Shown here piece by piece: positions 2,501-22,497 of a DNA stretch of 64,000 nt. The DNA comes from an uncultured Candidatus Woesearchaeota archaeon (GTDB lineage: Archaea; Nanobdellota; Nanobdellia; Woesearchaeales; B29-G15). The stretch lies in NCBI GenBank assembly GCA_903915225.1, contig CAIWSB010000080.1, positions 21,459-85,458 of the forward strand. Direction: 5' to 3'. The notes under the pieces are model-generated. The model did not search any database and had not been told where the DNA came from. It saw only the letters and a list, made by a program, of their open reading frames with translations. The position numbers and the translations under genes were made by a program. Position 1 is the stretch's first letter; every line of letters starts with the position of its first letter.

Positions 2501-3268
2501 TTACCTTTTCCAAGTCTTTGCTATTCCTATAACCCCTGCAATCACAAGCGGTATTGAGAGCCATTGACCCATGGAAATTCCAGCAATAACTATTTCTGGG
2601 CTCCTAAAGAATTCAATTATAATCCTAAATACACCATAGAAAAGCATGAAGCTGAAAAACAAAAAGCCGTCCTTTCGACTCTTGCTTTTTGAGAGTACCA
2701 GCAGGGAACCAAAAATGATTAGGTTTTTTACAATCTCGTATATTTGTGAAGGGTGCCTCGCAACGGTTCCGGCATCCGGCGCTTGCGGAAAGTAAACCCC
2801 CCAGGGAAGATTTGTTGGCTTCCCCCATAGCTCGCCGTTTATGAAATTTCCAAGCCGACCAAATGCAAGTGCAACCGGGATTGGCATTATGAACAGGTCA
2901 GCCATTTTTAGGAACTTGAGTTTCTGTTTTCTGCAATATAACCAAGCCAAGAGAATCCCAAGCAGGAATCCTCCGTGGAAAGACATTCCCCCTTCCCAAA
3001 TTTTGATGATTGCAACAGGGTTTTTCAGAAAGAAGATGGGGTCATAGAAGATGCAATAAAACAGCCTGCCCCCTACGATAAGTCCCAACACTAAATAGAA
3101 TATTATATCATTAATCTGCTCTTCAGTTACCTTTATCTTATGGGCTTTGGCATACCACCTGGCAAAAAAGTAGCAGAAGATTATGCCTATTACATACATT
3201 ACCCCATACCATCTCACATCCAGCTGCCCAACGTGAAAAAGCACGGGATTGATTGCATGGTGAAACAT
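2501..3268 (-). CDS. lgt: Prolipoprotein diacylglyceryl transferase (Lgt), bacterial type
   Basis: Polytopic membrane protein with the Lgt signature GRLGNFINGELWG...RHPSQIYE and a YGVMYVIGII N-terminal helix. ATG start confirmed. Confidence 0.8.
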   Translation of the reverse strand: MFHHAINPVLFHVGQLDVRWYGVMYVIGIIFCYFFARWYAKAHKIKVTEEQINDIIFYLVLGLIVGGRLFYCIFYDPIFFLKNPVAIIKIWEGGMSFHGGFLLGILLAWLYCRKQKLKFLKMADLFIMPIPVALAFGRLGNFINGELWGKPTNLPWGVYFPQAPDAGTVARHPSQIYEIVKNLIIFGSLLVLSKSKSRKDGFLFFSFMLFYGVFRIIIEFFRSPEIVIAGISMGQWLSIPLVIAGVIGIAKTWKR

Positions 3269-5931: not shown

Positions 5932-6360
5932 TTATTTTACTCGAGAATCGAGAGTTGTTAAGGGTTCTTGTTCGCAGAATTTGACGTAATCTCGTATTGC
6001 AGTCATTAGAGAATTAAACCCAGTTATATCTATTTTATTATATGCTGGGTCTACCTTGTGTTTAGCCCTTAAAGACACCCGGGTGTTACCTTCCTCACTA
6101 ACTGAGCTATAAACATGGAAATGGAGGCCCGAATAAAATAGACCCTTATAATTAGCCCATCCCTCTTTCTTTTCTAGGGGTGAAGAAGAGCTGATTTTGT
6201 CAATTGGTATCCCTTGGCTTAATAGATACTGCTGAAGAGAGTTGAGGTCGTGTGCACCAAGAATAACCAAATCTAAGTTTACATATGCCTTGTAGTTGTA
6301 GTGCATCTGCTTAAAATGAGCAACATACTTCTTGTCAGGCAATAGTTTTTCTAGCTCCAT
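5932..6360 (-). CDS. Hypothetical protein, tandem paralog A (142 aa)
   Basis: ORF with ATG start. It is paralogous to the adjacent upstream ORF, sharing the N-terminus M-x-LE-x-LPD-KYV and the C-terminus RDYVKxCEQEPLTTLDSRxK. Confidence 0.5.
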   Translation of the reverse strand: MELEKLLPDKKYVAHFKQMHYNYKAYVNLDLVILGAHDLNSLQQYLLSQGIPIDKISSSSPLEKKEGWANYKGLFYSGLHFHVYSSVSEEGNTRVSLRAKHKVDPAYNKIDITGFNSLMTAIRDYVKFCEQEPLTTLDSRVK

Positions 6361-6361
6361 C

Positions 6362-6772
6362 TTATTTCGCCCGTGAATCTAAGGTTGTTAATGGCTCTTG
6401 CTCGCAGAGTTTTACATAATCACGCAGGGCTTGCATAAGCTCAGATGCACCAGTACCGGACACTTTATAATCTGAGAATATTGCAGAATTTTTTGCTGTT
6501 AAAGATACAGTTGTTTGCCCGTTTTTTTTATGTGAAACTTGCAAGGAATACTTCACACCCCCCGAGAAATATCCGTTAAAACTTACAGCTTCTTCAGAGG
6601 TTTTCATTCCTTTAATAGGCACACCTTTCGCAAGAAGCAATTGCTGAAGCCCTGAAAAAGAATGCTGGCCAGGGATACTTAATTCATAATGGACATTATA
6701 AAGAACATTTCCCTCATGCTGTTTAAACAGGGATACATACTTCAAGTCGGGTAAATATTGTTCTAGCCCCAT
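6362..6772 (-). CDS. Hypothetical protein, tandem paralog B (136 aa)
   Basis: ATG start, GAGGT site upstream, and a 1-nt spacer to paralog A. Conserved termini are shared with paralog A. Confidence 0.5.
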   Translation of the reverse strand: MGLEQYLPDLKYVSLFKQHEGNVLYNVHYELSIPGQHSFSGLQQLLLAKGVPIKGMKTSEEAVSFNGYFSGGVKYSLQVSHKKNGQTTVSLTAKNSAIFSDYKVSGTGASELMQALRDYVKLCEQEPLTTLDSRAK

Positions 6773-8866: not shown

Positions 8867-9015
8867 ACTTCCTTGCCGCGAGAATTCTTTAATAATTCTA
8901 GGGAGAGAAATCCGGAGGGTATTCTGGTTGATTAAATTGTAGTTTGACGATTATTTCTCAACTAATATCACCTCTAAAGTGGTTAAAGCTTCTAATTGAA
9001 TTGAAGACTTCGAAA

Positions 9016-9026
9016 TTTATATATAT
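9016..9026 (+). promoter_or_regulatory. TATA-like box TTTATATATAT upstream of the giant surface-protein gene; GGTGA SD at 9071-9076
   Basis: An AT-rich TATA-like element ~55 nt before the ATG at 9082. The SD has 5-nt spacing to the ATG. Confidence 0.35.
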
Positions 9027-9081
9027 GTGCTCATTCTTGAACCATTATTTTAAACAATATATTTGATTTAAGGTGATTAGC

Positions 9082-12000
9082 ATGAGAAAAATATTGGTTA
9101 TGTCTTTAGTGATTTTGCTGCTGTTGCCATCCTTGGTTTTGGCTCTAACCCTTACTTCCCCTCAAGAAGGTACATTGATACCCTCCGATTACGGTTGTAA
9201 TGAACAGCCGAGCTGCAGTGAAGCGCTTTCTCAAAGTGGTGGCATTGCAACCCAATATGATTTCGACTCAGACGGCCGTGTCGACCTCAAGGAGGTTCTG
9301 CAGGCCATTGCTGATAAAAGCTTAGGAAAAATTTCCGGATCGCAAGTGTGTGGCATGATAGGGTTGTGGCAGAGTGATTGCATCACTATTCTATGCAAAG
9401 ACTCAGATAACAGCCCCGACTTTTATACGAATCTTATTACTTATCCAATAACATCCGATAGCGAGCCATCACTTTTCCAGAAGGGCTATGCTAAGGGTAT
9501 ATACACACAAGCAGACCAAAACCTAATAATTGGAGAGGGGAACAAGTTATCATCTATTAGCCAAAGCCCTTACCCCTATTCCATTTACTATGACCATTGT
9601 GCAAACGATCAACAGCTGAATGAGGCCTTCTGCACAACTGAAGGCAAACTAGCTTCCCAGGGAGTTTCATGTCCCAACGGATGCGCAAATGGCGCGTGCT
9701 TAAAAGTGTCAACTCCGAAATGCACAAGTGATTCCGAATGCCCCTCATCGCAGAATACATATTGCTCGGGTGGTTCGGTTTGTTATGAATCCCCAATCGG
9801 GAAATGCATAAACCCCGGAACCGATTCAGCTTACTGCGGCCAAGTCTCTGGGCAAGCGGCCTGTAAAATATGCCCCAATGGCTGCTCTAGTGGGGAATGC
9901 AACCCGGCGCCAACATGCAAAGATACAGATGGACTGAATTATTTGACCAAAACCTCTGTGACTTCAAGCCAGGGTAATGTTTGGTGGGATCAGTGCATTC
10001 AAATCACTGGCGGAACTCCAGAGAGTGCATCCTATTGCGCAGGACAAGACTGCTACCTTTACGAGATGCTTTGCAGCCCCGTTAAAAGTCCCGAAATACT
10101 TGAATTAACTAAAACATTTGATGGAGTGTATAGTGCAAAAATTAGATGTGCAGATGGTTGCAACGATGGCACCTGCAAAAAACCTACTGCAACATGCACG
10201 GATTCTGACGGCGGCATTGACTATTATACCAAAGGAAAAATTGAAGCTTCAGGTTGGGGAATTACCTATGATTCCTGCTTTGGAGAAAATGGCGCTAGTA
10301 TGTTGGATGAGTATTACTGCAATAAAGATGGTTCAGTAGGCAAAGTTGATTTTAGCTGCCCCAATGGCTGCAAGGATGGAGCCTGCATAAAACCAGCTGC
10401 GACATGCAAGGATTCGGATCTTGGGGTGGATCCATATACTAAAGGGATATGTAAAGACTCAAGGGGAGTCATCGTTGAAGACGGTTGCCTTAAATCAGAT
10501 GGTTCTGGTCCTTATCCTAAGGGAGAGTATGTTCTTGAATCCTACTGCATGACCCCTGACATGAGGGAATACTGCAAACAATTCAATGGTGCAGAATACT
10601 GCGATAATCTTCCAGATGTGTGCTATTCCTCTCCATTTATCCCCCAGGATAATCTTGCATGGTATTATTTCCCAAGGAATGAGGCATATTTCTGTGAAAA
10701 TGGCTGCTCAAATGGGGCATGCATAAAGGGAACAAACCCAAAATGCACAAGCGATTCTGAATGCACATCCTCCCAAAAGTCATATTGCTCCGGCAATTTG
10801 GTTTGTGTTCAACCCTCAAGCGGAAAGTGCATAAATCCTGGAACTAATTCAGCTTATTGCGGTACATTATCTGGGCAAGAAGCTTGCCAGCTGTGCCCCA
10901 ATGGTTGCTCAAATGGTGCTTGTATAACCTCAACTTCCAGCTGCTCTGACACAGATGGTGGCATAAATCAGTTTGTCAAAGGAACTGTAAAAACCTTCAG
11001 AGGTCCAGACGAAACGGGGCTGATTGGTATAGCCCAAGGGGTTGGTGCTGTTAAAAAAAGTGTAGAATCTAAGGAAGGTTACACTGCAACTTTTACAGAT
11101 GCCTGCTTCAAGGCGGATGATTACTTCACCCTTAATGTGGGAGAAAAAAGAGATATCAAGATATGGCAGGAAAAATCTAGTGTTGAAATTGTGAACGTAA
11201 ATGTCCCAGAAAATAAAGTTACCCTAAAAATTGGGGGAAATATTTTGACCCTGAATGAGAACGAAGTGAGTGGGATGAACCAAATTATGGTTGGCAAAAT
11301 ATTCACTGCCGAAATCCCTTACCCTACGGCGCAAGTGGAGATTTTTATAGGTCCGCATCAGGGTGCAGGGGATTACCTCATGGAATTCTATTGTTCTGGG
11401 GACAACAACGCCGCTGTAGAATATTTCAAATGCGAGAACGGGTGCTCCGATGGAGCCTGTAACCAGGTAAACACAAAGTGCATTTCTGAAGGACAGACAG
11501 GTTCAGGGTTTTCCCCATACTCCTCTAACGAGAAATGCTGTGCGGGCCTAACTAGTGTTGCCTGTGCAACATCAGACGGCGATATGTGCGGCGTAGCCAC
11601 AGACTGCTTTGTCTGCACCAACTGCGGTGACGGTATATGCGGCCTAGGTGAGAATCAATGCAACTGCGCTCAAGACTGTAATAATTGTGTTGGCGAAGGG
11701 GGCAGTATACCGGTAATTCAAAACGGCCCCAAATGCTGCGCGGGTTTGACACCAATTTCACCCACAGTGTCTAGCGGAACAGGAGAGTGCTTGGTTATGA
11801 TTGGAGCACAGGTTTGCACCAAGTGTGGTGATGGAATCTGTGGCGCAGGTGAGAACCAATGCAACTGCGCTGAGGATTGTGCGTATTCCAAATGCTCAGA
11901 CACCGATGGCGGCCAAGATGTTTTCACAGCAGGCAAGGTGATAATTACAAAGAGCACTGGCTCGATTTACACAGTTCCAGACACATGTGTGTCTGAAGCC

Positions 12001-13500
12001 AACATGCATAATATGGGAATTATGGAGGTAAGCTCATTTGTAAAGAAGGTCAACCCTATCACTGCAGTATCATCTCCTACTGTGACAGTAGCCTCTACTC
12101 CAGTTCAATCAACTTCAGCCGGGGCTTCTGGAGGGCAAGTGCCTTCAGTGGCATCTGTTCAAAACACAGCTATACAAGTGGCTGAAGAGATTGCTGAGCA
12201 GCCCCCATCACAGTATACTACTCCACAACAACCCCCATTAATTACACCCCCCTATGGACATAAGACATATGTTTTGGAGCAATACTGTAATGAAAATGGT
12301 GGCTATAATACCTTGGCTTACGAATGCCCATACGGATGTGAGAATGGTGCTTGTATTACATCACCAGCCACCTGCCTTGCTGAAGGAGAAAATGGCAAAT
12401 CCGGTTTTGAACTCACCACCTGCTGCGAAGGCTTAACCAGCGTCCCAAATTCAAAATTTGAAACAGTTGGTGATGCATCCGGTTACACATGCCTCCAGCC
12501 CCAGGACGGGAGCTTTGTCTGCACCAACTGCGGAGATGGCATATGCGGCTTGGGAGAAAACCAATGTAACTGTGCTCAAGACTGTAATAATTGTGTTGGC
12601 GAAGGAGGAAGCATCCCGGTTATTCCAAACGGCCCAAAATGCTGTGCCGGTTTGACACCAATTTCACCCAGTGTGTCTAGTGGAACAGGAGAGTGTGCGA
12701 TTATGGTGGGGGCGCAGGTTTGCACCCAATGCGGTGACGGTATCTGCGGCGCAGGCGAAAACACCTGCAACTGCGCAGAAGACTGCAAGAAAGTGACCAA
12801 GTGCGAAGTCAATGCAGGGTACTGCCAAGCTGAGTACAAATGCACTGACTTTAAATGCGGCCCTGCACCCACATGCAAAGAGGGATACTATGAGTCTGGT
12901 GAGCTTGGCTGTGTGGAAGGATTATGTTGCCTGCCAGAACCACCTGCAACCAAATGCGAAGCCAACGGTGGTTATTGCAATGTTATGCCAGAATGCAAAG
13001 AGGGATATGAGTGCATACAAATGATGCCAGAATGCAAGGGTGGGTATAATCCCTCTAAAGACTCCTTGGGTTGCCCGGGGGAATGCTGCCTACCTGAAGT
13101 ACCAACCAACACCTGCGAGACCAATGGGGGAAAGTGTACTATTCTTGGGGATCTTGTTGAAGATACGTGTGAAATGCACAACCTGAAAACACTCCCCTAT
13201 TCTTGCCAGCAGATTGCAACGAATACACAATGTTGTGCTGAAGCGATTGTGCCACCCACTACAGTTTGTTCTGGCTGCGTCTACAAAGAGGCATGCCTCC
13301 CAATTGGAACCAGAGTGAGTGTGGATAGTGCGGGTCAATTCTGCGATATAAACAAGCAGATTACTGCCCAACTCCCTGAAGATAATTCCTGCATGAACAA
13401 CTATGAATGCAAATCCAACCTCTGCGTGAGTGACAAGTGTATAAGTGGTGGATTCTTTACAAGGATAATGGAATGGTTTAAGAGCCTCTTTGGGGGATAA
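9082..13500 (+). CDS. Giant (1472 aa) secreted modular cysteine-rich surface protein. The track ORF begins at GTG 9073; the likely true start is ATG 9082.
   Basis: Sec signal peptide MRKILVMSLVILLLLPSLVLA. Eight copies of C-[PE]-N-G-C-x-[DN]-G-[AT]-C and about six copies of C-x-D-[ST]-D-G-[GL] (CKDTDGL, CTDSDGG, CKDSDLG, CSDTDGG twice, plus a weaker CKDSDNS). Two ~90-aa near-identical CTNCGDGICGLGENQCNCAQDC...CGDGICGAGENQCNCAEDC repeats, a Pro/Ser/Thr linker, and EGF/granulin-like Cys knots at the C-terminus. Confidence 0.8.
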   Translation: MRKILVMSLVILLLLPSLVLALTLTSPQEGTLIPSDYGCNEQPSCSEALSQSGGIATQYDFDSDGRVDLKEVLQAIADKSLGKISGSQVCGMIGLWQSDCITILCKDSDNSPDFYTNLITYPITSDSEPSLFQKGYAKGIYTQADQNLIIGEGNKLSSISQSPYPYSIYYDHCANDQQLNEAFCTTEGKLASQGVSCPNGCANGACLKVSTPKCTSDSECPSSQNTYCSGGSVCYESPIGKCINPGTDSAYCGQVSGQAACKICPNGCSSGECNPAPTCKDTDGLNYLTKTSVTSSQGNVWWDQCIQITGGTPESASYCAGQDCYLYEMLCSPVKSPEILELTKTFDGVYSAKIRCADGCNDGTCKKPTATCTDSDGGIDYYTKGKIEASGWGITYDSCFGENGASMLDEYYCNKDGSVGKVDFSCPNGCKDGACIKPAATCKDSDLGVDPYTKGICKDSRGVIVEDGCLKSDGSGPYPKGEYVLESYCMTPDMREYCKQFNGAEYCDNLPDVCYSSPFIPQDNLAWYYFPRNEAYFCENGCSNGACIKGTNPKCTSDSECTSSQKSYCSGNLVCVQPSSGKCINPGTNSAYCGTLSGQEACQLCPNGCSNGACITSTSSCSDTDGGINQFVKGTVKTFRGPDETGLIGIAQGVGAVKKSVESKEGYTATFTDACFKADDYFTLNVGEKRDIKIWQEKSSVEIVNVNVPENKVTLKIGGNILTLNENEVSGMNQIMVGKIFTAEIPYPTAQVEIFIGPHQGAGDYLMEFYCSGDNNAAVEYFKCENGCSDGACNQVNTKCISEGQTGSGFSPYSSNEKCCAGLTSVACATSDGDMCGVATDCFVCTNCGDGICGLGENQCNCAQDCNNCVGEGGSIPVIQNGPKCCAGLTPISPTVSSGTGECLVMIGAQVCTKCGDGICGAGENQCNCAEDCAYSKCSDTDGGQDVFTAGKVIITKSTGSIYTVPDTCVSEANMHNMGIMEVSSFVKKVNPITAVSSPTVTVASTPVQSTSAGASGGQVPSVASVQNTAIQVAEEIAEQPPSQYTTPQQPPLITPPYGHKTYVLEQYCNENGGYNTLAYECPYGCENGACITSPATCLAEGENGKSGFELTTCCEGLTSVPNSKFETVGDASGYTCLQPQDGSFVCTNCGDGICGLGENQCNCAQDCNNCVGEGGSIPVIPNGPKCCAGLTPISPSVSSGTGECAIMVGAQVCTQCGDGICGAGENTCNCAEDCKKVTKCEVNAGYCQAEYKCTDFKCGPAPTCKEGYYESGELGCVEGLCCLPEPPATKCEANGGYCNVMPECKEGYECIQMMPECKGGYNPSKDSLGCPGECCLPEVPTNTCETNGGKCTILGDLVEDTCEMHNLKTLPYSCQQIATNTQCCAEAIVPPTTVCSGCVYKEACLPIGTRVSVDSAGQFCDINKQITAQLPEDNSCMNNYECKSNLCVSDKCISGGFFTRIMEWFKSLFGG
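9715..9905 (+). repeat. Intragenic repeat B copy 1 (PKCTSDSEC...CPNGCSSGEC module); copy 2 at 10735-10925, ~75-80% nucleotide identity
   Basis: Direct comparison of ccgaaatgcacaagtgattccgaatgc... with ccaaaatgcacaagcgattctgaatgc... Confidence 0.6.
10735..10925 (+). repeat. Intragenic repeat B copy 2
   Basis: See copy 1. Confidence 0.6.
11611..11880 (+). repeat. Intragenic repeat A copy 1 (~270 bp; encodes CTNCGDGICGLGENQCNCAQDCNNCVGEGGSIPVIQNGPKCCAGLTPISP...CGDGICGAGENQCNCAEDC)
   Basis: Near-identical (~85-90%) to 12517-12785. At the protein level the copies differ at only a few positions. Confidence 0.7.
12517..12785 (+). repeat. Intragenic repeat A copy 2
   Basis: See copy 1. Confidence 0.7.
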
Positions 13501-13530
13501 ATTTTTATTTAACCTTCATTTTTTAATTTT

Positions 13531-14193
13531 GTGAAGGGTTTAATAGCTGTTTTTGTATTTTTTATAATTCTAATTTCCTTGGCAGAAGGTAAACTTAACC
13601 AAGGGCCCATGAATTCAAGGCAGATTGAAATACCTTGTACTGAATCAGATGATGGTAAGGACTTTTACCTGCGCGGCAGTGTTTGGGGAGTTGATAATTG
13701 GGGAATAAATGGAATTATAAGTGACATATGCCTTGGCAAGGATGAGTTGGTGCCAATGTTTCCCGGGCAAAGAAGAGTGATAGAGACAAGCAGGGGCACT
13801 GCCATGGAGATTAGGCTTCTGGGATTAGATGAGGGGAAAGGGAAGGTATTAGTGAGTCTTGATGGGAAGGAATTCACAGCTGAGCAATGGGATAAGCTGG
13901 CCTTTGCAGGCGGCTATGTTGGAATAAACCAAATTGCTGAAAATTGGGTTTTTTTGACATTTAACCTAACTGCTGCTGGCAACAAATTATTGGAGTATTA
14001 TTGTGAAGACCAAAAAATTGGTTTTGAAATTTATGAGTGCCCAATGGGATGCTCCGATGGGGCCTGCAGGGTGGATGAAAAACAAGAAAGAACAACAAAA
14101 GAGGTTGTTCTATTTCCTCTTGAACATTTTCTCCAGATCAACCCTAGTGAATTTTATGACAGTTGGGCGGCCATGGGCGCAGGCATAGGCTAG
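13531..14193 (+). CDS. Small secreted protein (220 aa) carrying one copy of the same Cys module as the giant protein; GTG start
   Basis: Signal peptide VKGLIAVFVFFIILISLAEG, then CTESDDGKDFYLRG ... YYCEDQKIGFEIYECPMGCSDGACR, which parallels the module boundaries in the giant protein. Needs a GTG start. The 3' end overlaps the mutL 3' end by 84 nt (convergent). Confidence 0.5.
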   Translation: MKGLIAVFVFFIILISLAEGKLNQGPMNSRQIEIPCTESDDGKDFYLRGSVWGVDNWGINGIISDICLGKDELVPMFPGQRRVIETSRGTAMEIRLLGLDEGKGKVLVSLDGKEFTAEQWDKLAFAGGYVGINQIAENWVFLTFNLTAAGNKLLEYYCEDQKIGFEIYECPMGCSDGACRVDEKQERTTKEVVLFPLEHFLQINPSEFYDSWAAMGAGIG

Positions 14194-15792
14194 ATTGCAT
14201 TCGAACAGCTTTTCAAGTAAGGAAGACATCTCTGCCGGGGAAAGCTCCTCATTGGCTTTCACCGAAGCCTTGCAGGCCATTGTATGGATAATCTCTTCCT
14301 TTACCATCCCACTCTTAGTCTTCTTGAGATTCGCGGCGAGTTCATCGAACAGGTCTTTAAGATAATCTTTTGTGACCCCCCCGCCAAGAATAACCGGAAC
14401 CTGCCTCACAATGAATTGATGCTCCCCAAAGCTTTCCACATCAAAACCTAGCTCGCGCAGATGAGCAAGCCCCTCTTTGATAATAGGCACATTGTGTTTT
14501 GGCGGACTCACAAGAATTGGCTGAAGCAGCTGCTGTGGTTTTTGGTTTGAGTCCAGGGTTTTGTTTAACCTTTCAAGATTTATTCGCTCTTCAGCTGCAT
14601 GCTGGTCAACAATTATGAGGCCGTCAGGTACCTCGGCGATGATGAAGCTCTTTGCCACTTGCCCCAGCACCTTAAAGCCCGGCGATGAGTGTTCCCGTGC
14701 GAGCATGGTTTGTTTGCCCATATCAATCTTACCTTCAGGAGCATTCTTCGTAGCATTACTGAGAATACGGCCGAGTACACTCTGCTGCGATTCCGGCTGC
14801 TTCTCAATAAGCACATTATGCTCGAGAGCCTCCTTAACAGCCAGATGAACCTCTGTGAAAACAAGCTCTTCGGAATCAAATTTCACTTCTTGCTTCGTGG
14901 GGTGTACGTTTACATCAATCCTGCCTGGTTCGATTGTGATATTGAGCACAGCCACAGGCTTCTTATCCAAAAACAGCAGGGTCTTATAGGCAGATTCAAG
15001 CGCATCGGTCAGCAGCTTACTCTTAATGTATCTGCGATTCACAAAAAAACTCTCAAAAGCTCGGGTGCTGCGGGCAATGCTCGGAATTCCAATCAATCCA
15101 TCAACTCTGATACTGCCGGAGTGCAACACGGGTACCATATTCTTAGCAACATCCATTCCGTATATGTGGGCCACCTTGCTCCTCAAGTCAACAGTTGCCG
15201 GAGCACTTAGTATCTCCGATTCATTGTTCTTTACAATGAACCCAATTTCTGGGTAAGCCAGGGCATAGTTGGTTACAACATCAACAATGAGCCTAAGCTC
15301 GCCCGTTTCACTTGCCAAGAATTTCCTGCGTGCAGGTGTGTTGTAGAAAAGGTTACGCACCGCAATTGTTGTCCCCTTTGGTGCAGCTACTTCCTCCACA
15401 CGCTTGCCATCACCATCTACCACAACACGCGTTCCAGTACCAGCACCATCGTTTGTTACAATGCTAAGCCTTGAAACAGCAGCAATACTGGCCAAAGCCT
15501 CACCACGAAAGCCCAGATGCCTGATGTTGAATAAGTCGGCCAGTGTTGATATTTTGCTGGTCGTATGCCTCTCCACCGAAAGAAGGGCATCAGCGCGTGA
15601 CATCCCGGAGCCGTTGTCGCTAATAATTATCACATCCTTTCCGCCAGCCTTGAGCTCGATGCGAACCATTGTGGCTCTGGCATCTATTGCATTCTCCACA
15701 CATTCCTTTACCACAGAAACCGGGCGTTCAACTACCTCTCCAGCAGCTATCTTTTCAACAATTTCCCTTTGGAGCCTCTTTATTGTTCCCAT
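14110..15792 (-). CDS. mutL: DNA mismatch repair protein MutL
   Basis: GHKL ATPase N-terminus EVVERPVSVVKECVENAIDA...IISDNGSGM and the C-terminal dimerisation domain with CAHGRPTVIKF. Confidence 0.9.
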   Translation of the reverse strand: MGTIKRLQREIVEKIAAGEVVERPVSVVKECVENAIDARATMVRIELKAGGKDVIIISDNGSGMSRADALLSVERHTTSKISTLADLFNIRHLGFRGEALASIAAVSRLSIVTNDGAGTGTRVVVDGDGKRVEEVAAPKGTTIAVRNLFYNTPARRKFLASETGELRLIVDVVTNYALAYPEIGFIVKNNESEILSAPATVDLRSKVAHIYGMDVAKNMVPVLHSGSIRVDGLIGIPSIARSTRAFESFFVNRRYIKSKLLTDALESAYKTLLFLDKKPVAVLNITIEPGRIDVNVHPTKQEVKFDSEELVFTEVHLAVKEALEHNVLIEKQPESQQSVLGRILSNATKNAPEGKIDMGKQTMLAREHSSPGFKVLGQVAKSFIIAEVPDGLIIVDQHAAEERINLERLNKTLDSNQKPQQLLQPILVSPPKHNVPIIKEGLAHLRELGFDVESFGEHQFIVRQVPVILGGGVTKDYLKDLFDELAANLKKTKSGMVKEEIIHTMACKASVKANEELSPAEMSSLLEKLFECNLAYACAHGRPTVIKFTRVDLEKMFKRK

Positions 15793-18260
15793 TTTTTCAA
15801 ACTAAATTGTTCTGCATGTTTCTTCCCCTGCAGCTTGTCCAGCATCTCATCTTCATCCATGAGTTGTTTCTGGATACCCATAGCCCTATCAACAACCTCT
15901 TGCGGCATTCCTGCGAGCCTGGCCACATGGATTCCGTAGCTCTTATCAGTTCCGCCCTCTTCAATTTTCCTTAGGAAGATGATGTCACCACCCTTCTCCT
16001 TTACACTGATGTTCCAGTTTTTGATATTTGCAAACTCCTCACCCATCTTGTTGAGCACATGATAATGGGTTGCAAAGATTGTCTTAGCCTTAATTTTGTT
16101 GTAAATGTACTCTGCAACTGCCCAAGCTATTGCAACGCCATCAAATGTTGACGTTCCGCGGCCAACCTCATCAAGCATGATAAGCGATTTATCAGTTGCA
16201 TTGTTGAGTATGTTGGCTGTCTCATCCATTTCAACCATAAATGTGCTCTGGCCATGCATGAGGTCATCATAGGCTCCAACTCGGGTGAATATCCTGTCCA
16301 CTATGCCAATCTCAGCCTCCCCGGCAGGCACAAAGCTGCCAATCTGGGCCATGAGTACAATCAAGCAGACCTGGCGCATATAGGTGCTCTTGCCAGCCAT
16401 ATTTGGGCCAGTAAGGATTACCATCTCATTCTTAGTGAGCAAAGTATCGTTCGGAATAAAACCAGGACAAATAAGTTCAACAACCGGATGTCTGCCAGAT
16501 TTAATGCGGATATCTCCGTTGTTGTTTACCAAAGGTTTAACGTATCTATGCTTTTCAGCTGCATGGGCAAGGGAGCAAAGCACATCAAGGACAGCAAGAC
16601 GCCGGGCTATTGCCTGGAGTGGCCTTGCATTACGTTCCATCTCTAAAACAACTTGCCTGAAGAGCTCATACTCAAGTATATTTATCCGCTCTTCGGCCCC
16701 CAATATCTTTGATTCAAGCACCTTTAGCTCTTCGGTAACATAGCGCACCCCCCCAACCAGGGTTTGCTTCTGAATGAAATTGGGTGGCACTCTGCCGATT
16801 TGGGAATTTGAAACCTGGAGGTAATAACCAATAACCTGGTTGAAGCCAACCCTCAGGGTTTTTATGCCTGTTCGGTTTATTTCATCATACTCAATGCGCT
16901 TGAGCACCTCACTGCTGGATTCCTTTATCTCTCTAAGCTCATCCAGCTCTAGGTTAAAGCCTGCACGGATTATCCCCCCCTCAGTTGCCTTTAGTGGTGG
17001 GTTCTCCTGAATGGCCTTTTTTATCCCCCCAGTTAATTCATTAAGGGTCTGCATTGTGGCTAATTTTGTGAGTGTAGAATTGGTTGAATCCTTTAGAAGC
17101 GAGATAAGCTTGGGCAGCTGGTCCAGGGAAGTGCTCACGGCAATCAAATCCTTTGGGTTGATGCTGTTGTATGAGAGCTTGCCAACCATTCGCTCTAGGT
17201 CGCAAACTCCCTTCAAAAGGCTGCGTATCTCTTCCCTCAAGATTGGGTCACGGGCCAGTAGGGCAATTGCATCTTGTCTTCCCTTTATTTTATCCACATC
17301 AATGAGGGGGCGCTGGAGCCATTGCCTAAGCCGCCGTGCACCCATTGGCGTGATAGTATAATCAATCTTGCCCAACAGGGTGTCTTTTCCACTCCGGTCC
17401 ATTATATTCTCAAAAACCTCTAGGTTGCGGAGCGTTGTGCTGTCAACTATCATGAACCAGTTGATGTTTATTGTCCTCATCCTATTAATGTGCCCTAAGG
17501 CCAGCTTCTGGGTCTCTTTAAGGTAGGCAAGAAGCCCCCCTGCAGCAGATATTTGCAATGGTTTGCCCTCGAGTCCGAAACCGCGGAGCGAGTTGGTGCG
17601 GAAATGCTCCAGCAGGGTGCGCGCCGCATCATCATTGTTGAATGAGCTGTCAGGGAATTTTGTCACAAATATCTTCTCCTTTTCGAGCAGCACTAGAAAG
17701 TCCCCGTTCACAGCAAAGCTTTCTGGGATAAGGCATTCTGCAGGTCTGAGTTTTCTTAGCTCAGAAGCCACCCGCTCAAAACCCTGCGCCTCGAAGCAGA
17801 AAAAATCCCCCGTTGTTATGTCCGCTGCAGCTACGCCAAAGCTATCCCCACGCGGAAAGACAGAAGCTATAAAATTATTCTGGCCCTGCTGAAGCATACC
17901 CTCTTCAGTTACTGTGCCTGGAGTGATAATCCTAACAACATCCCTTGAGACAATCCGGCCCTTCACTGTTCTAGGGTCCTCCATCTGCTCAGCAATTGCC
18001 AAACGCAGGCCGCTGCTTATCAGCCTCTGGATATAGGTATCAGCCGCCCTATAAGGAATGCCTGCCAGGGGTGCCTTCTTTTGGCCCTTCCCTCTTGAAG
18101 TGAGTGTAATCCCAAGCACCTTGGAGGCAGTGATGGCATCCTCATAGAACATCTCATAGAAATCCCCCATGCGGAACATCAGGAGGCAGTCTGGGTGCTT
18201 CTGCTTAAAGTGCTTGTACTGCTTCATTGCCGGAGTCAAATCCGGCTCCAAACCCCCCAT
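15780..18260 (-). CDS. mutS: DNA mismatch repair protein MutS (bacterial MutS1 type). The track start 18299 is TTG; the first ATG is at 18260.
   Basis: N-terminal mismatch-binding TPAMKQY...LLMFRMGDFYEMF and Walker A LTGPNMAGKSTYMRQV. Overlaps the mutL start by 13 nt. Confidence 0.9.
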   Translation of the reverse strand: MGGLEPDLTPAMKQYKHFKQKHPDCLLMFRMGDFYEMFYEDAITASKVLGITLTSRGKGQKKAPLAGIPYRAADTYIQRLISSGLRLAIAEQMEDPRTVKGRIVSRDVVRIITPGTVTEEGMLQQGQNNFIASVFPRGDSFGVAAADITTGDFFCFEAQGFERVASELRKLRPAECLIPESFAVNGDFLVLLEKEKIFVTKFPDSSFNNDDAARTLLEHFRTNSLRGFGLEGKPLQISAAGGLLAYLKETQKLALGHINRMRTININWFMIVDSTTLRNLEVFENIMDRSGKDTLLGKIDYTITPMGARRLRQWLQRPLIDVDKIKGRQDAIALLARDPILREEIRSLLKGVCDLERMVGKLSYNSINPKDLIAVSTSLDQLPKLISLLKDSTNSTLTKLATMQTLNELTGGIKKAIQENPPLKATEGGIIRAGFNLELDELREIKESSSEVLKRIEYDEINRTGIKTLRVGFNQVIGYYLQVSNSQIGRVPPNFIQKQTLVGGVRYVTEELKVLESKILGAEERINILEYELFRQVVLEMERNARPLQAIARRLAVLDVLCSLAHAAEKHRYVKPLVNNNGDIRIKSGRHPVVELICPGFIPNDTLLTKNEMVILTGPNMAGKSTYMRQVCLIVLMAQIGSFVPAGEAEIGIVDRIFTRVGAYDDLMHGQSTFMVEMDETANILNNATDKSLIMLDEVGRGTSTFDGVAIAWAVAEYIYNKIKAKTIFATHYHVLNKMGEEFANIKNWNISVKEKGGDIIFLRKIEEGGTDKSYGIHVARLAGMPQEVVDRAMGIQKQLMDEDEMLDKLQGKKHAEQFSLKKWEQ

Positions 18261-18361
18261 GCAAGGGCATAATCCCTTGTGGTTTTTAAAATTTGCCAAG
18301 GTTGGGCCTCGAGAGAGGGGAAGTGCTCCTTAGAAAGATATTTAAATTTCACCCCAGATAA

Positions 18362-18814: not shown

Positions 18815-20596
18815 ATGTGGAAAAGAGGTGCATCGGTTGGTATATTCTTGGTAATTGGAGTAATAATACTCATAACAGCGGGGCTTGTTGTCTGGGTAAT
18901 GAATGGCACATCTCCAAAGCCAACAAATGATGATGTGTCCGGCTATGATGCTAGTGAAGTCCAGAGCTTTGTTAATAGCTGCCTATTTGATTCAACAATT
19001 GCAGGGCTGCGCCTATTGGGACAGCAGGGTGGAGTTATATACCTGAGCCAGGGAGGAGTAACCCCAGATTCTTTCATGCAATCTGAGGCGATACTTTACG
19101 ATGGAAGCTATATACTTAGGGGTATATTGGCCGGGGATATGGACTCTGGGCGCTCCTGTGTCCCAACCCACAAACCACCTATCTATAACCCAGAGAGATG
19201 CCCAAATGTGGCATTCCCCTTCTATAATACAGAATCTCCAGAGGTTTCAATGCAGCAGCTGAGGATATCACCTCCCCCAGCTGATGCCTATGTTCGGCTT
19301 TTAAACAGGGTAAACCTTCGAGACCTCTACCCTCGCACAGAGGAATTTACGAAAATGGGAGCCACATTTGACAATTTGGTTGACAACTCCAGGGACCAGA
19401 GCGTCTATGCGACACTCAAATCCTTCATTGAGCGCAATATCACAAAATGCCTTGACTTCTCAAGCCTTCAAAATGTGGAGGTTACTGCCACGGGGCAGCC
19501 ACAGGTAATCCCTATAATATCTGCTGATTTTGTTACAGTTAGTATGAAATATCCCTTAACAGTAAAACACCAATCAAAAACAATAAGCCTGGAGAAGTTC
19601 TCAGCACCCACACGGGTCAGGTTTAAACCCTTGTTCATTTACGTCAAGTACCTTCTTGAAAATGAAGCCCTGGATTTCAGTTTTGACATCGGTTTGCCCC
19701 AGGACAGCCCAGTGGGTGTAAGCCATATTGTAAATAAGGATGTTGTGGGAAAGGCAGACTTGCTTCAAGTGACTGACAATAACTCTTTCCTGCCAGATAA
19801 AGGGGGAAGTGGTTTTGTGCCTTTCATGTTCTCCACTTTTATTGATAACTCTCAACCGGCCATATCTTATATCCATTATAATAATTTAGATATAGTGCCG
19901 GGGTTGAGGAATAGGCTCACTCATTGTTCGCTCTTAGCAGAACCGCGCAACCCCTGGGAGGAATCAACCACTGATTTGGAAGCTGAAATTGGTACTACCA
20001 TGAATCGGGCAGCACTTACTTGCCTCTGGCAAGCCTATGAGAATTCACTAGGGCCTGGATACAGGAGGGTATATGAGCCAGACGGTGATCTTTTGCCTCC
20101 CCCTGACTTCAAGACTGCACATTGTGAATGGAATAAACCCTGCCAATACAAAGGTGAGAATCTCTTCCTTGATAGGCCAGTAAATTTAACAATTAGGTTT
20201 AATGATAGTCAATATGCGGATACTTTAACAATTCCTCTAAAATTATTTGACCACCCGGTTGAAGATCTGAGGATAGGGAGGGTCCACTATGAAGAGGAGG
20301 TTTTGGCAGGTCTTGACCCTCTTATTGTAGACTTAGAACAGGCACTACAGTTACTACCGCTGGTATACCAAGTAAATGCCACCGATGAGGATATCCGGTG
20401 GGGGACTGAAGTCGATGAGATTGAGTATAGTGTGGATGTACCAACTGTTAAGTCGGAGAAGGAAGAACTATCGGAAATTAAACGCCGCTGGGTTGTCGGG
20501 TTCATGAGAAGCTATTCTGGGCAAGTCGCCAACTTCTCTGTCAGGGACAATTATGGCAAATCCATCAGCAAAACTATTGTTTTAGGGGAAGATTAG
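18815..20596 (+). CDS. Large (593 aa) extracellular protein with a class III (type IV prepilin-like) signal peptide
   Basis: N-terminus MWKRG|[23 protein letters not shown] fits the archaeal prepilin peptidase motif (basic residues, G, small residue, hydrophobic helix). The remainder is soluble with no recognisable domain. Confidence 0.55.
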
Positions 20597-20625: not shown

Positions 20626-22497
20626 ATGGGAACTAAAATGGCAAAAAAAGGTTATCTTTTACTAGCTCTGTTGATAGGGATATTCTTGGTGCAATACGCT
20701 GCAGCCCAGAGTGGATGCTGCCTCAACCCAATGACTGAGGGATGTAAATACTCTGCATTGGAAACATGCTGCCCGCCAGACGCCCCAGATAAGTATGTGG
20801 CAGCAGGGGGAGTGGGACCTGCGAATCAAGGGAATTGCACTAGTAATTGGTTCTATCAGAGCGAGCAGGAGGATGCATGCGCCACGATGTCGGCCGATAC
20901 ATTCCCCAATGCAGGTTATTGCATGCAGGGATGTTGCTGCACAAGCCCGCCAGAGTCACAGGAAGGGAATCCTTTCCCAGTAATATTCCTGCAGGAGAAT
21001 AAACTCCTGTGCCTGGGCTTAGACCAGTTTTGGTTTGATTTACAGACAACACCTGTTTGTGATAACACAACCTGCGGGCCAAAATTGTACCCCCCCTTGC
21101 TTAGAAATGCAACTTGTGATATAACTATACCGGGTTATTGTGACCCTTACACCGCGTCAGACCCAGAAGTTATTTGTAAAAATGTTACAAATGTCAATGC
21201 TCAAAACACTCAACGAGGAGTGTGTTGTTACAGCCCCGAGTGTGCAGCAGAAATTGTTGGAGAGACTGTAACAGAAGATCTCTGCGTGGAAACCTTCACT
21301 TCCCCATTCAATGACCCACAAATGGTTTGTGTGAATGGCAATTGGGTCCAATCTGGGCTACCAGTTGGTGCTGGTGAGGTTTGCGCAAGGCAGACAGGCC
21401 AGACAGCAACAAACGAACCAATACTTTTACAGGTTGGTACGTGCACTGATGGCCTGCTTTGTAAACCTGCATTGATTGATGAGATCTTTCACGTATGCTG
21501 TGCAAACAACGAGTGTAGTTACTTTAATACAACCAGCCTAAACGGAACCTGCTATGCTGACCTTTCCAAAATTGAATTGGGAATTGAGACAAGAGCTAAT
21601 TACACCTGTGACAACGGGACATGGACAACTGCTAGTGATGAAATCAAAAAGCGGCATGGAGAGATTTGCGAGAAGTCCCTTGATTGTAATACTGATCTCT
21701 CATGTTTACCCTACAATGTGGAGTCCACTGAAGAAAGCGCAGGTATAAAGCACTGCTGCCTTAAGGATGGCACCGAGTGTGGTTCTCCAGATGGATGCGC
21801 GGGTAAAGATGATACAAAAAAGGTGGGCAACGATACATATGTCTGCATCGGACCGCTTTGGGTAAAGAAGACGGTGGTTGAAACCCCTTGGGAACCACAA
21901 GATAACGGTGGCAGCTCAGGTGGCGGTGGCTGCAGCTCAGCAGGAACAGGTAGTGGTGCAGGTGGCGTTGGCGGGGATAATGTGACCCTAGACACTGATA
22001 ATGATACAATCCTAGATGATAGCGACAACTGCATAAATATATCAAACACAGACCAGAAAGACACAGATAGTGATGGTAAGGGCGATGTGTGTGATGATGA
22101 TATTGACGGAGATGGGGTATTAAACGAGCAGGATAACTGCCCTGAAATCCCAAATGCGGACCAAGCTGACCTCGATAATGATAAAATTGGAGACGTTTGC
22201 GATTCTGATAAAGATGGAGACACGGTTGCAAACGATGTAGACAACTGCCCCCTAGTGATTAACACAGACCAGAAAGATGATGATAATGACGGAATGGGGG
22301 ATGCGTGCGATACTAACGGCAACCAGGAAACCAATTCTTTACTCTTATGGGGCGCCGTGCTAGGTGTGGTAGGAGCAGGCTTAGCTATCGCACTTGGTTG
22401 GATAGCGGCACCCACTTTAGCCATTGGATCTCTCGTTGTTGGAATTGGAACAGTGGTGGGTGTAGTTGTGGGCTGGCTAGTGAGTCTATTCGTCTAA
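20626..22497 (+). CDS. Secreted Cys-rich surface protein with thrombospondin type-3 Ca-binding repeats and a C-terminal TM anchor
   Basis: Signal peptide [25 protein letters not shown]. Cys-rich N-terminal region. Five or six TSP3-like repeats, D-x-D-x-D-G-x-x-D-x-C-D / DNCPxxxNxDQxDxDxDGxGDxCD ([82 protein letters not shown]). C-terminal hydrophobic stretch [25 protein letters not shown]...[10 protein letters not shown]. Confidence 0.7.

What the first reader, a model, noticed from the sequence alone, without database searches (positions are those of the whole stretch)
9082..13500. Giant secreted protein built from a recurrent cysteine module I cannot assign to any named domain
The 1472-aa ORF has a Sec signal peptide. 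It contains eight copies of C-[PE]-N-G-C-x-[DN]-G-[AT]-C (CPNGCANGAC, CPNGCSSGEC, CADGCNDGTC, CPNGCKDGAC, CENGCSNGAC, CPNGCSNGAC, CENGCSDGAC, CPYGCENGAC), each usually preceded by [YF]-[YF]-C. It also has about six copies of C-x-D-[ST]-D-G-[GL]-x-[DN]-x-[YF], which appear to mark module starts. So roughly 100-170 aa modules repeat along the chain. Further elements are two ~90 aa CGDGICGxGENxCNCAxDC units, which loosely recall Myxococcales-type Cys-rich repeats, a Pro/Ser/Thr-rich linker (about 12020-12250), and EGF/granulin-like Cys knots at the C-terminus. No recognisable TM anchor or known sorting signal follows. It is flanked by other secreted proteins. This looks like a lineage-specific cell-surface or attachment protein family.
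Basis: seen in the sequence. Interest (0 to 1): 0.8.

Follow-up and report, generated by a model that had tools for sequence, protein, structure and literature searches.

The report
Cysteine-rich modular surface protein, Woesearchaeote
A 1472-residue exported protein of a tiny DPANN archaeon is built mostly from an unnamed 64-residue cysteine module that turns out to be widespread in uncultured archaea and bacteria, has a confident predicted fold with no solved counterpart, and completely avoids N-glycosylation sites.

Summary
ORF 9082-13500 (+) encodes a 1472-aa, 9.4% Cys protein with a Sec-type signal peptide and eight C-x-[NDY]-G-C-x-x-G-x-C motifs, against 0.004 expected by shuffling. Pfam, NCBIfam and PDB sequence searches find nothing.

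The module is not lineage-specific. A profile of about 64 aa (CTDSDGG..KG..D.C..L.EYYC..CPNGC.DGAC) matches 11,151 cluster representatives out of 1.84 billion, mostly unnamed. The named ones are DPANN archaea plus a few Patescibacteria.

Six cysteines are kept in 99% of copies, and four acidic residues in 92-98%. Extra cysteines come in pairs, which points to disulfides and possibly a cation site.

The protein holds six such modules, four of them with nested insertions. The Pro/Ser/Thr "linker" lies inside one of them. The remaining parts are two B modules, two CGDGICG double units, three C-terminal repeats, and a conserved terminal Cys domain ending in an amphipathic helix (..WFKSLFGG).

It has no N-x-S/T sequons, against 13 expected.

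Best reading: a disulfide-stabilised, unglycosylated cell-envelope or attachment protein. The function is inferred, not shown.

The parts
9013..9081 (+). Likely expression signals: an A/T-rich TATA-like stretch (aaatttatatatatg, 9013-9027) and a GGTGA Shine-Dalgarno-like box (9072-9076), 5 nt before the ATG at 9082.
   Evidence: Read directly from the sequence. Function is inferred, not tested.
9082..9147 (+). Sec-type signal peptide, aa 1-22 (MRKILVMSLVILLLLPSLVLAL-T). No lipobox cysteine.
   Evidence: This is the only hydrophobic 19-aa window with KD > 1.6 in the protein. The cleavage site was judged by eye.
9148..9393 (+). N-terminal region, aa 23-104, with one EF-hand/dockerin-like acidic loop (DFDSDGRVDLKEVLQAI, aa 58-80, nt 9253-9321).
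   Evidence: Sub-threshold EF-hand hits, E 0.19-0.22, 12 bits against a cutoff of 25. phmmer match (4e-07) to P0079 aa 256-325, which carries a weak EF-hand_7 hit.
9394..9699 (+). Module A copy 0, aa 105-206. Degenerate start (CKDSDNSPDFY) and a long loop insertion.
   Evidence: The A1 profile matches as two pieces: hmm 1-13 at aa 105-117 (weak) and hmm 24-64 at aa 166-206 (3.8e-13). The insert has homologues in 15 fetched proteins.
9721..9900 (+). Module B copy 1, aa 214-273 (CTSDSEC...C.NPGT..AYC...CPNGCSSGEC). A different 10-Cys module that shares only the terminal CxNGCxxGxC hairpin.
   Evidence: The A1 profile matches only the last 25 residues, weakly. phmmer finds B-type copies in 7 fetched proteins.
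9916..10176 (+). Module A copy 1, aa 279-365. Divergent, ending CADGCNDGTC.
   Evidence: A1 profile hmm 1-64, i-E 4.6e-06.
10195..10386 (+). Module A copy 2, aa 372-435. The canonical 64-aa module and the sequence that was modelled.
   Evidence: A1 profile i-E 1.6e-20. AlphaFold2 pLDDT 95.1, pTM 0.80, five beta strands. No PDB neighbour.
10405..10722 (+). Module A copy 3, aa 442-547, with a Cys-rich insertion of about 40 aa in the loop before the terminal hairpin.
   Evidence: A1 profile hmm 1-46 at aa 442-493 plus hmm 48-64 at aa 531-547. The insert is closely similar to P0005 and P0016 (6e-28, 3e-26).
10744..10923 (+). Module B copy 2, aa 555-614.
   Evidence: Same Cys pattern as aa 214-273. 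Weak A1 match to the hairpin only.
10942..11460 (+). Module A copy 4, aa 621-793, with a nested insertion of about 125 aa (aa 640-763, nt 10999-11370).
   Evidence: A1 profile hmm 1-19 at aa 621-639 plus hmm 35-64 at aa 764-793. Aligns end to end with the 220-aa downstream protein (BLASTP 1e-10). The insert itself has no homologue among the fetched proteins.
11479..11880 (+). C double unit 1, aa 800-933. Two C...CCxGL...C..CGDGICGxGENxCNCAxDC sub-units.
   Evidence: Motifs at aa 848 and 915. Homologous stretches in 10 fetched proteins. No Pfam or NCBIfam hit.
11893..12354 (+). Module A copy 5, aa 938-1091. It is split by a Pro/Ser/Thr-rich, probably disordered insertion of about 85 aa (aa 976-1060, nt 12007-12261).
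   Evidence: A1 profile hmm 1-37 at aa 938-975 (3e-07) plus hmm 34-64 at aa 1061-1091 (3.5e-09).
12373..12786 (+). C double unit 2, aa 1098-1235. A recent duplicate of unit 1.
   Evidence: DNA repeat 11606-11879 / 12512-12785, 84% identical. Motifs at aa 1150 and 1217.
12799..13242 (+). Three D repeats of about 48 aa, aa 1240-1387 (KCE.N.GYC...C...C...GC...CC.PE).
   Evidence: Read from the translation. No homologue among the fetched proteins and no family hit.
13258..13497 (+). Conserved C-terminal domain E, aa 1393-1472. It has 8 Cys (C.GC..C.P.G.R..YC..Q..C.NNYEC.SN.C..C) plus a terminal amphipathic helix, aa 1456-1470 (FFTRIMEWFKSLF, nt 13447-13491). Candidate surface tether.
13531..14193 (+). 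Downstream 220-aa paralogue. It has its own signal peptide and one module A with a nested insertion of about 75 aa (CTESDDGKDFY ... LLEYYC ... CPMGCSDGAC).
   Evidence: A1 profile hmm 1-38 at aa 36-74 plus hmm 34-64 at aa 150-179, full E 2.3e-19. T-rich spacer 13501-13530 after the TAA stop.

Best explanation
This is a Sec-exported, disulfide-bonded, deliberately unglycosylated modular cell-envelope protein of a Woesearchaeota (DPANN) archaeon.

Its backbone is a string of small autonomous cysteine-rich domains.

The dominant domain, here called module A, is an uncatalogued but very widespread beta domain of about 64 aa. It has six invariant cysteines, inferred to form three disulfides. It also has four near-invariant acidic residues (D3, D5, D29, E39), inferred to form a cation site, probably Ca2+.

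The loops of module A tolerate large nested insertions. The rigid module probably serves as a scaffold that displays variable inserts and spaces them along a stalk.

The conserved C-terminal 8-Cys domain and its terminal amphipathic helix (..WFKSLFGG) most likely hold the protein at the cell surface, either in the membrane interface or through an envelope partner. The array would then project outward to contact host cells, other cells or surfaces.

Shown: the ORF, the signal peptide, the domain map, the size of the module family, the confident predicted folds, the absence of known homologues, and the absence of sequons.

Inferred: the disulfides, cation binding, surface retention and an adhesive role.
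For: ORF and architecture: six module A copies, recovered as complementary profile halves around insertions; two B modules; two C double units; three D repeats; one E domain.

Organism: archaeal ribosomal proteins S4e and L32e, and SecY 79% identical to Ca. Woesearchaeota.

Module A family:
- 11,151 representatives at E <= 1e-3 and 743 at E <= 1e-30.
- 1,282 full-length copies in 276 fetched proteins. 99.2% keep all six Cys. D3 is kept in 92%, D5 in 98%, D29 in 98% and E39 in 97%.

Disulfide inference:
- Cysteines beyond the six come almost only in even numbers. Counts are 131 copies with 2 extra, 16 with 4, 11 with 6 and 6 with 8, against 4 with 1, 1 with 7 and 1 with 11.
- Several homologues fuse the module to DsbA/thioredoxin domains.

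Fold: pLDDT 95.1, with no PDB neighbour.

Extracellular context in homologues: S_layer_C outer domain, CARDB, dockerin, PKD and Kazal.

Insertion tolerance: the loop after C31 varies from 6 to 98 residues.

Tail:
- Invariant W and F, and terminal position in 52 of 71 occurrences.
- Predicted helix with hydrophobic moment 0.66.
- Two adjacent, otherwise different secreted genes in an Aenigmatarchaeota contig carry the same tail.

Sequon avoidance:
- 0 observed against 13 expected.
- Two other signal-peptide or TM-start proteins in the window carry about twice the expected number, 7 vs 3.8 and 12 vs 5.5.
Against: - There is no direct evidence of location, expression, disulfides, metal binding or any ligand.
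- The tail is too short and too polar to span a membrane. It could equally be an oligomerisation or docking helix, or nothing more than the end of the domain.
- Several short 'stand-alone' hits to the terminal domain look like fragments, so they add little.
- This protein itself has no S-layer, lectin, Ig or enzyme domain.
- The neighbouring genes are housekeeping and give no functional context.
- The acidic motif is D-x-D-G-G-x-[DN], not a canonical DxDxDG loop. The model coordinates could not be inspected to see whether the four acidic residues cluster.
- The afdb50 fold library was unavailable, so an annotated structural relative among predicted structures cannot be excluded.
Confidence: 0.55

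Rival explanations
1. The protein is a released, soluble or matrix protein. After export it is shed and forms a protease-resistant extracellular scaffold, biofilm matrix or protective coat, rather than being tethered to the cell. The C-terminal helix mediates self-association, not anchoring.
For: - No TM segment, lipobox or archaeosortase-type signal.
- The terminal helix is only about 15 residues and amphipathic.
- Longer variants of the tail in homologues look like extended helices that could bundle.
- Disulfide-dense small domains are typically very stable (general knowledge).
Against: - The tail keeps an invariant Trp and Phe at the very C-terminus in many otherwise unrelated architectures. 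That pattern fits a shared targeting or tethering element better than a generic coiled coil.
- Homologues combine module A with S-layer outer domains.
Confidence: 0.2
2. The protein is an S-layer or S-layer-embedded structural component of the Woesearchaeote envelope. The modules are lattice-forming or spacer units, not adhesive ones.
For: Nine of the 120 listed homologues carry PF05124 (S_layer_C, 'outer domain') next to module A copies. The protein is large, acidic (166 D+E against 89 K+R) and has a signal peptide.
Against: - This protein has no S-layer domain at E <= 1.
- Archaeal S-layer proteins are typically heavily N-glycosylated (general knowledge; PMC6098224 and bioRxiv 10.1101/2023.10.27.564410 discuss this). 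This protein has no sequon at all.
- Its architecture is not conserved. The best non-self hit is 33% identical over 19% of the query, which is unlike a core envelope protein.
Confidence: 0.1
3. The cysteines are metal ligands (Zn, Fe-S, Cu or metallothionein-like), and the protein binds or sequesters metals outside the cell.
For: 9.4% Cys. Some homologues carry the MopE-type 'putative metal-binding motif' PF11617.
Against: - No CxxCH motif and no ferredoxin-like spacing.
- No PF11617 hit in this protein or in 100 module copies.
- Extra cysteines occur in pairs.
- DsbA/thioredoxin fusions occur in homologues.
- The fold is confidently predicted without cofactors.
- Export is by the Sec route, which moves unfolded chains (inference from the signal peptide).
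Confidence: 0.05

Closest known systems
Unnamed 'hypothetical protein' family of DPANN and CPR metagenome-assembled genomes that carries the same module (e.g. UniRef100_A0A5E4LRB4 of Ca. Bilamarchaeum dharawalense; MBS3097972.1 of a Ca. Woesearchaeota archaeon)
   Same: Same module A by profile, with up to 25 copies per protein. Also the same B, C and E modules, signal peptides and C-terminal tails.
   Different: Only the modules are shared, not the architecture. The best non-self hit is 33% identical over 19% of the query. None of these proteins has a name, a described function or a structure.
Archaeal S-layer-like proteins with the PF05124 (S_layer_C) outer domain
   Same: Secreted archaeal envelope proteins. 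PF05124 sits beside module A copies in nine homologues.
   Different: PF05124 is absent from this protein. This protein is Cys-rich and free of sequons.
Eukaryotic disulfide-rich extracellular modules (Dickkopf N-terminal domain, IGFBP N-domain, fibronectin type I, VWC, EGF)
   Different: All scores are below significance. No HMM match was found. Module A has no match at all. The resemblance is of kind, not of ancestry.
Myxococcus cysteine-rich repeat (TIGR02232 / Pfam DUF4215)
   Same: A CGDG..C...E..C..DC-like spacing recalls the CGDGICGxGENxCNCAxDC motif.
   Different: No hit from Pfam or NCBIfam at E <= 1. The motif here is the tail of a unit of about 67 aa with CCxGL and further cysteines.
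Calcium-binding acidic loops (thrombospondin type 3 repeats, EF-hand/dockerin, DxDxDG motifs)
   Same: The invariant acidic D-x-D-G-G-x-[DN] at the module start, plus two more invariant acidic residues. An EF-hand-like loop at aa 58-80.
   Different: - TSP_3 is not detected here, although the same kind of scan finds it in the neighbour gene 20626-22497.
- EF-hand scores are far below the cutoff.
- The spacing differs from the canonical DxDxDG.
Cysteine-rich variant surface proteins of parasites (e.g. Giardia VSPs; from general knowledge)
   Same: Cys-rich (about 10%), modular, highly variable surface proteins of small host-dependent organisms.
   Different: No sequence or fold relation was tested or expected. 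VSPs use CXXC motifs and a TM anchor. Nothing here shows antigenic switching.

Membership tests
Module A family (unnamed; defined here by profile A1) | Match to the 64-position profile with six cysteines at positions 1, 31, 42, 55, 59 and 64, and acidic residues at 3, 5, 29 and 39. | tested here: met
   Six copies in the giant ORF and one in the 220-aa neighbour. Conservation figures come from 1,282 copies.
Module A family (unnamed; defined here by profile A1) | Three intradomain disulfides and a bound cation. | not testable with these tools
   Only indirect support: extra cysteines occur in even numbers, and DsbA fusions occur in homologues.
Myxococcus cysteine-rich repeat (TIGR02232 / PF13948) | HMM match at or above the curated cutoff. 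| tested here: not met
   No hit at E <= 1 in Pfam or NCBIfam.
EGF-like / granulin / Kazal domains | HMM match to the Pfam models, or a significant fold match. | tested here: not met
Archaeal S-layer-like family (PF05124 S_layer_C) | HMM match to the outer domain. | tested here: not met
   Absent from this protein. Present in homologues P0002, P0010, P0011, P0012 and P0054.
Thrombospondin type 3 repeat (PF02412) | HMM match. | tested here: not met
   No hit in the giant ORF. The same library detects TSP_3 at 1.2e-26 in ORF 20626-22497.
EF-hand / dockerin type I | HMM match above the cutoff, and paired Ca-binding loops. | tested here: not met
   EF-hand_6 and EF-hand_1 at E 0.19-0.22, 12 bits against a cutoff of 25. 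There is one loop only, at aa 58-80.
Archaeosortase-type C-terminal sorting signals (PGF-CTERM and relatives) | C-terminal signature motif followed by a hydrophobic TM helix and a basic tail. | tested here: not met
   No hydrophobic window with KD > 1.6 outside the signal peptide. The tail FFTRIMEWFKSLFGG is amphipathic. No NCBIfam hit.
Multihaem c-type cytochromes / Fe-S proteins | CxxCH or CxxCxxC motifs. | tested here: not met
   Zero CxxCH motifs. The nine CxxC motifs lie in module hairpins.

The most novel reading that the evidence does not exclude
Three linked readings remain open.
1. Module A is a previously undescribed cation-dependent, three-disulfide fold. It would be the main building block of the host-contact surface of DPANN archaea, and of some CPR bacteria that share it across domains.
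2. The conserved terminal domain with its ..W[FL]xx[LI]FG amphipathic helix is a new kind of archaeal surface-tethering or sorting signal.
3. The total avoidance of N-x-S/T sequons marks a class of envelope proteins that must escape the cell's own N-glycosylation in order to fold or to bind.
Probability: 0.25. Interest if true: 0.7.

Novelty: new variant of a known kind. Interest (0 to 1): 0.55.

Why it matters
DPANN archaea and CPR bacteria are thought to live attached to host cells, yet the molecules that make the contact are almost entirely unknown. Papers on DPANN surfaces discuss Ig/PKD-like, lectin-like and pectin-lyase-like proteins (bioRxiv 10.1101/2023.10.27.564410) and pili (PMC7906910). 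Five full-text searches found no description of this cysteine module.

The work here defines several objects that can be expressed and tested:
- a domain family with more than 11,000 representative proteins that no curated library names, with a confident predicted fold and no solved counterpart;
- a conserved C-terminal domain and helix that may be a tether;
- a striking signature of sequon avoidance.

It also raises a question: how do anaerobic, genome-reduced archaea make and keep dozens of extracellular disulfides per protein?

If the adhesive or tethering roles hold, these modules would become markers for finding the host-contact proteome in metagenomes.

Tried and rejected
- Pfam and NCBIfam on the whole protein and on the 220-aa neighbour gave nothing useful.
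- Pfam on 100 module copies gave only scattered single hits.
- PDB sequence-profile searches gave E 0.96 for module A and E 0.12 for domain E. Both look like chance.
- The afdb50 fold library was not available.
- The GTDB genome scan did not recover the source genome. It returned only two distant loci.
A degenerate DNA pattern for CPNGCx[DN]GAC found 0 matches in IMG/VR.
- I tried to deduce disulfide pairing from joint loss of cysteines. This failed because 99.2% of copies keep all six.
- Five literature searches (DPANN or Woesearchaeota with cysteine-rich, disulfide, surface or giant) found no description of the module.
- The idea that the nested insert of module A4 is an S_layer_C-like domain was dropped. 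PF05124 in homologues is a separate, differently patterned domain, and the insert has no homologue among the fetched proteins.
- Short 'stand-alone' C-terminal-domain proteins were rejected as evidence. Most look like fragments or truncated gene calls.
Full report
**1. The ORF**

The ORF listing reports one long ORF, 9073..13500 on the + strand. The GTG at 9073 lies inside a GGTGA box (9072-9076). That box sits 5 nt before the ATG at 9082, and an A/T-rich TATA-like stretch lies at about 9013-9027. ATG 9082 is therefore the likely start, giving 1472 aa.

An identical protein is on record from two different contigs, 9.5 kb and 106 kb long. The frame is therefore not an assembly artefact.

The window is archaeal. 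It encodes ribosomal proteins S4e and L32e and archaeal-type uL22, uS3, uL6 and uS5. Its SecY is 79% identical to SecY of Candidatus Woesearchaeota, and the other named hits are Woesearchaeota or 'Nanoarchaeota'. The organism is a DPANN archaeon.

**2. The observation**

The protein has 138 cysteines (9.4%). It also has six C-x-D-[ST]-D starts and four CGDGICGxGENxCNCAxDC motifs.

Residue shuffling gives a mean of 0.004 copies of the ten-residue motif, and never more than one.

The only hydrophobic stretch is the N-terminal signal peptide.

- There are four CGDGICG motifs, in two double units of about 135 aa. The DNA of the two units is 84% identical.
- [YF][YF]C precedes only three of the eight motifs.
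- The Pro/Ser/Thr-rich stretch is not a linker between modules (see section 4).

**3. What the module is**

Neither Pfam-A nor NCBIfam matches the protein at E <= 1. The exceptions are sub-threshold EF-hand hits at aa 58-80 and one sub-threshold TonB match at aa 43-75 (E 0.2, 11 bits against a cutoff of 265).

A search of 5.8 billion clustered proteins found 156 relatives. All are unnamed or 'hypothetical', apart from a few labelled after an accompanying domain (CARDB, dockerin, thioredoxin). They come from Alti-, Woese-, Micr-, Aenigm- and Diapherotrites archaea and from Patescibacteria. Similarity is confined to modules: the best non-self hit is 33% identical over 19% of the query.

Regular expressions recovered 372 start-to-hairpin modules in 120 of these proteins. 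The modal length is 60-70 aa.

An alignment of 100 copies (A1) has the consensus CTDSDGGxNYYxKG...D.C....L.E.YC.......Y.CPNGC.DGAC. Results for this alignment:
- Its members hit no Pfam family consistently.
- Its profile hits no PDB sequence (E 0.96).
- Searched against 1.84 billion 50%-cluster representatives, it matches 11,151 proteins at E <= 1e-3, 4,284 at E <= 1e-10 and 743 at E <= 1e-30, with up to 25 copies per protein.
- The top hits that carry any name are 'hypothetical' or 'uncharacterised'.

The module is therefore real, very widespread and uncatalogued. It is not lineage-specific.

In 1,282 full-length copies taken from 276 fetched proteins, all six cysteines are kept in 99.2%. D3, D5, D29 and E39 are kept in 92-98%.

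Copies with extra cysteines almost always have an even number of them. Several homologues fuse the module to DsbA or thioredoxin domains.

I infer three disulfides per module. The four acidic residues suggest a cation site. Neither inference could be checked on coordinates.

**4. Domain map**

| Element | Residues (aa) | Notes |
|---|---|---|
| Signal peptide | 1-22 | Only hydrophobic stretch in the protein |
| N-terminal region | 23-104 | One EF-hand-like loop, aa 58-80 |
| Module A, six copies | 105-206, 279-365, 372-435, 442-547, 621-793, 938-1091 | 372-435 is canonical |
| Module B, two copies | 214-273, 555-614 | Different 10-Cys pattern; shares only the terminal hairpin |
| C double units | 800-933, 1098-1235 | |
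| D repeats, three of about 48 aa | 1240-1387 | |
| Terminal domain E | 1393-1472 | |

In four of the six A copies the profile matches as two complementary halves around an insertion. The same is true of the 220-aa downstream protein. Examples are hmm 1-37 at aa 938-975 with hmm 34-64 at aa 1061-1091, and hmm 1-19 at aa 621-639 with hmm 35-64 at aa 764-793.

The Pro/Ser/Thr-rich stretch (aa 976-1060) is therefore a loop nested inside module A5. The nested insertions in A5 and in the downstream protein fall in the loop after the second cysteine. That loop is the most length-variable one across the family, ranging from 6 to 98 residues.

Most segment types have homologues in other proteins. The exceptions are the A4 and A5 inserts and the D repeats. 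The protein is a mosaic of shared mini-domains.

**5. The C-terminus**

Many otherwise different homologues end in the same way. An 8-Cys domain, C.GC....C.P.G.R....YC.......Q......C.NN[FY]EC.SN.C....C, is followed by a helix ending W[FL]xx[LI]FG (alignment A2).

Among the fetched proteins, 52 of 71 occurrences of this domain lie at the extreme C-terminus. A profile search found 30 more, mostly fragments.

The helix FFTRIMEWFKSLF has a hydrophobic moment of 0.66 at mean hydrophobicity 0.28. That is amphipathic, not membrane-spanning.

In an Aenigmatarchaeota contig, two adjacent secreted genes carry the same tail. One of them has no module A.

The position, the conservation and the sharing between unrelated architectures are what one expects of a tethering or sorting element. 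This is inference only.

**6. An unexpected property**

The protein has no N-x-S/T sequon, despite 85 Asn and 16% Ser+Thr. The expected number is 13.1 +/- 3.4.

Internal controls are normal: the mirror S/T-x-N occurs 7 times, D-x-S/T 10, Q-x-S/T 8 and N-x-x-S/T 17.

Two other signal-peptide or TM-start proteins in the same window are sequon-enriched, at 7 vs 3.8 and 12 vs 5.5.

Among 119 homologues the observed/expected ratio is bimodal, and eleven proteins have zero sequons. Tail-bearing proteins are the most depleted, with a median ratio of 0.14 against 0.83 for proteins with no recognised C-terminal motif (p = 0.01 for tail-bearing against all other proteins).

The simplest reading is selection against N-glycosylation of these compact modules. 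This was not tested further.

**7. Context**

The immediate neighbours are housekeeping genes: Asp/Asn-tRNA synthetase, Lgt, a HerA-like ATPase, a PRPP-synthetase-like protein, TrpRS and RadC upstream, and MutL and MutS downstream. The only related neighbour is the 220-aa one-module paralogue at 13531-14193. No other ORF in the window carries the motifs or the tail.

No viral contig in IMG/VR carries the canonical hairpin motif.

**8. Interpretation**

The firm part is structural. This is an exported mosaic of disulfide-type mini-domains. It is dominated by a large, unnamed domain family with a confidently predicted fold that has no solved counterpart.

The functional part is inferred from four things:
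- the signal peptide;
- the extracellular partners of the module in homologues (S-layer outer domain, CARDB, dockerin, PKD, Kazal);
- the insertion-tolerant loops;
- the conserved tail.

Together these suggest a surface-retained stalk that displays variable inserts for contact with hosts or substrates. This fits the attached lifestyle proposed for DPANN archaea (PMC7906910; bioRxiv 10.1101/2023.10.27.564410).

The rival readings are a shed matrix protein, an S-layer component and a metal-binding protein. They are less well supported but not excluded.

**9. Novelty and score**

Modular Cys-rich extracellular proteins are a known kind, and relatives of this protein already sit in databases as hypothetical proteins. 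Three things appear to be undescribed in the libraries and literature I could search:
- the definition, size and predicted fold of module A;
- the terminal domain and helix;
- the sequon avoidance.

I rate this a new variant of a known kind, with interest 0.55.

Noticed in passing
window 9082-13497, compared with 18815-20596 and 20626-22497: The giant protein has zero N-x-S/T sequons, against about 13 expected. Two other signal-peptide or TM-start proteins of the same window have about twice the expected number. Homologues are bimodal: eleven have zero, and those with the WFxxLFG tail are the most depleted.
   Followed up: partly
window 2501-3268 (-): A full-length prolipoprotein diacylglyceryl transferase (Lgt, PF01790, E 5e-82) in an archaeal (Woesearchaeota) contig. 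Lgt is a bacterial lipoprotein enzyme, so this is either a transfer or a hint at lipoprotein anchoring in this archaeon. The giant protein itself has no lipobox.
   Followed up: no
window 20626-22497 (+): A 623-aa secreted protein with thrombospondin type 3 repeats (PF02412, 1.2e-26), a hydrophobic C-terminal helix (..[23 protein letters not shown]) and 12 sequons against 5.5 expected. It is a conventionally anchored, probably glycosylated surface protein that contrasts with the giant ORF.
   Followed up: partly
window 18815-20596 (+): A 593-aa ORF with an N-terminal hydrophobic segment and no Pfam or NCBIfam hit. It is sequon-enriched (7 vs 3.8 expected).
   Followed up: no
window 5932-6360 (-) and 6362-6772 (-): Two tandem paralogous small ORFs (142 and 136 aa). 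Both end in ..RDYVK[FL]CEQEPLTTLDSR[VA]K. They are called as genes in the public record, with no Pfam hit on record.
   Followed up: no
window 22694-44057: A fairly complete set of nucleotide-biosynthesis genes for a DPANN genome: CTP synthase, PyrD-like, OMP decarboxylase, PurL, and two tandem DUF1246/DUF1297 (PurP-like) paralogues at 41902-42942 and 42939-44057. MutS and MutL lie at 14110-18299.
   Followed up: no
L002 5923-7353 and 7372-8310 (Aenigmatarchaeota contig JAGLWW010000006.1): Two adjacent secreted genes end in nearly the same helix (..ETKGILEGIMDFLRSLFGFK and ..ETKGILEMILDFFRSLFGFK). Only the first carries module A motifs. The tail behaves like a shared tag.
   Followed up: partly
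homologues P0003, P0016, P0024, P0028, P0042, P0063, P0078 and others; also P0006, P0050, P0052, P0061, P0098, P0099: Module A proteins fall into other recurrent C-terminal classes as well. One ends in C.LG....PP.PE. Another ends in a helix ..IR.EIK.D...LR.YI..ILEKMVS. This suggests several alternative terminal tags in this protein class.
   Followed up: no
window 1-64000: No tRNA gene (ARAGORN) and no Rfam family at gathering score in 64 kb, although the window spans a ribosomal-protein operon.
   Followed up: no
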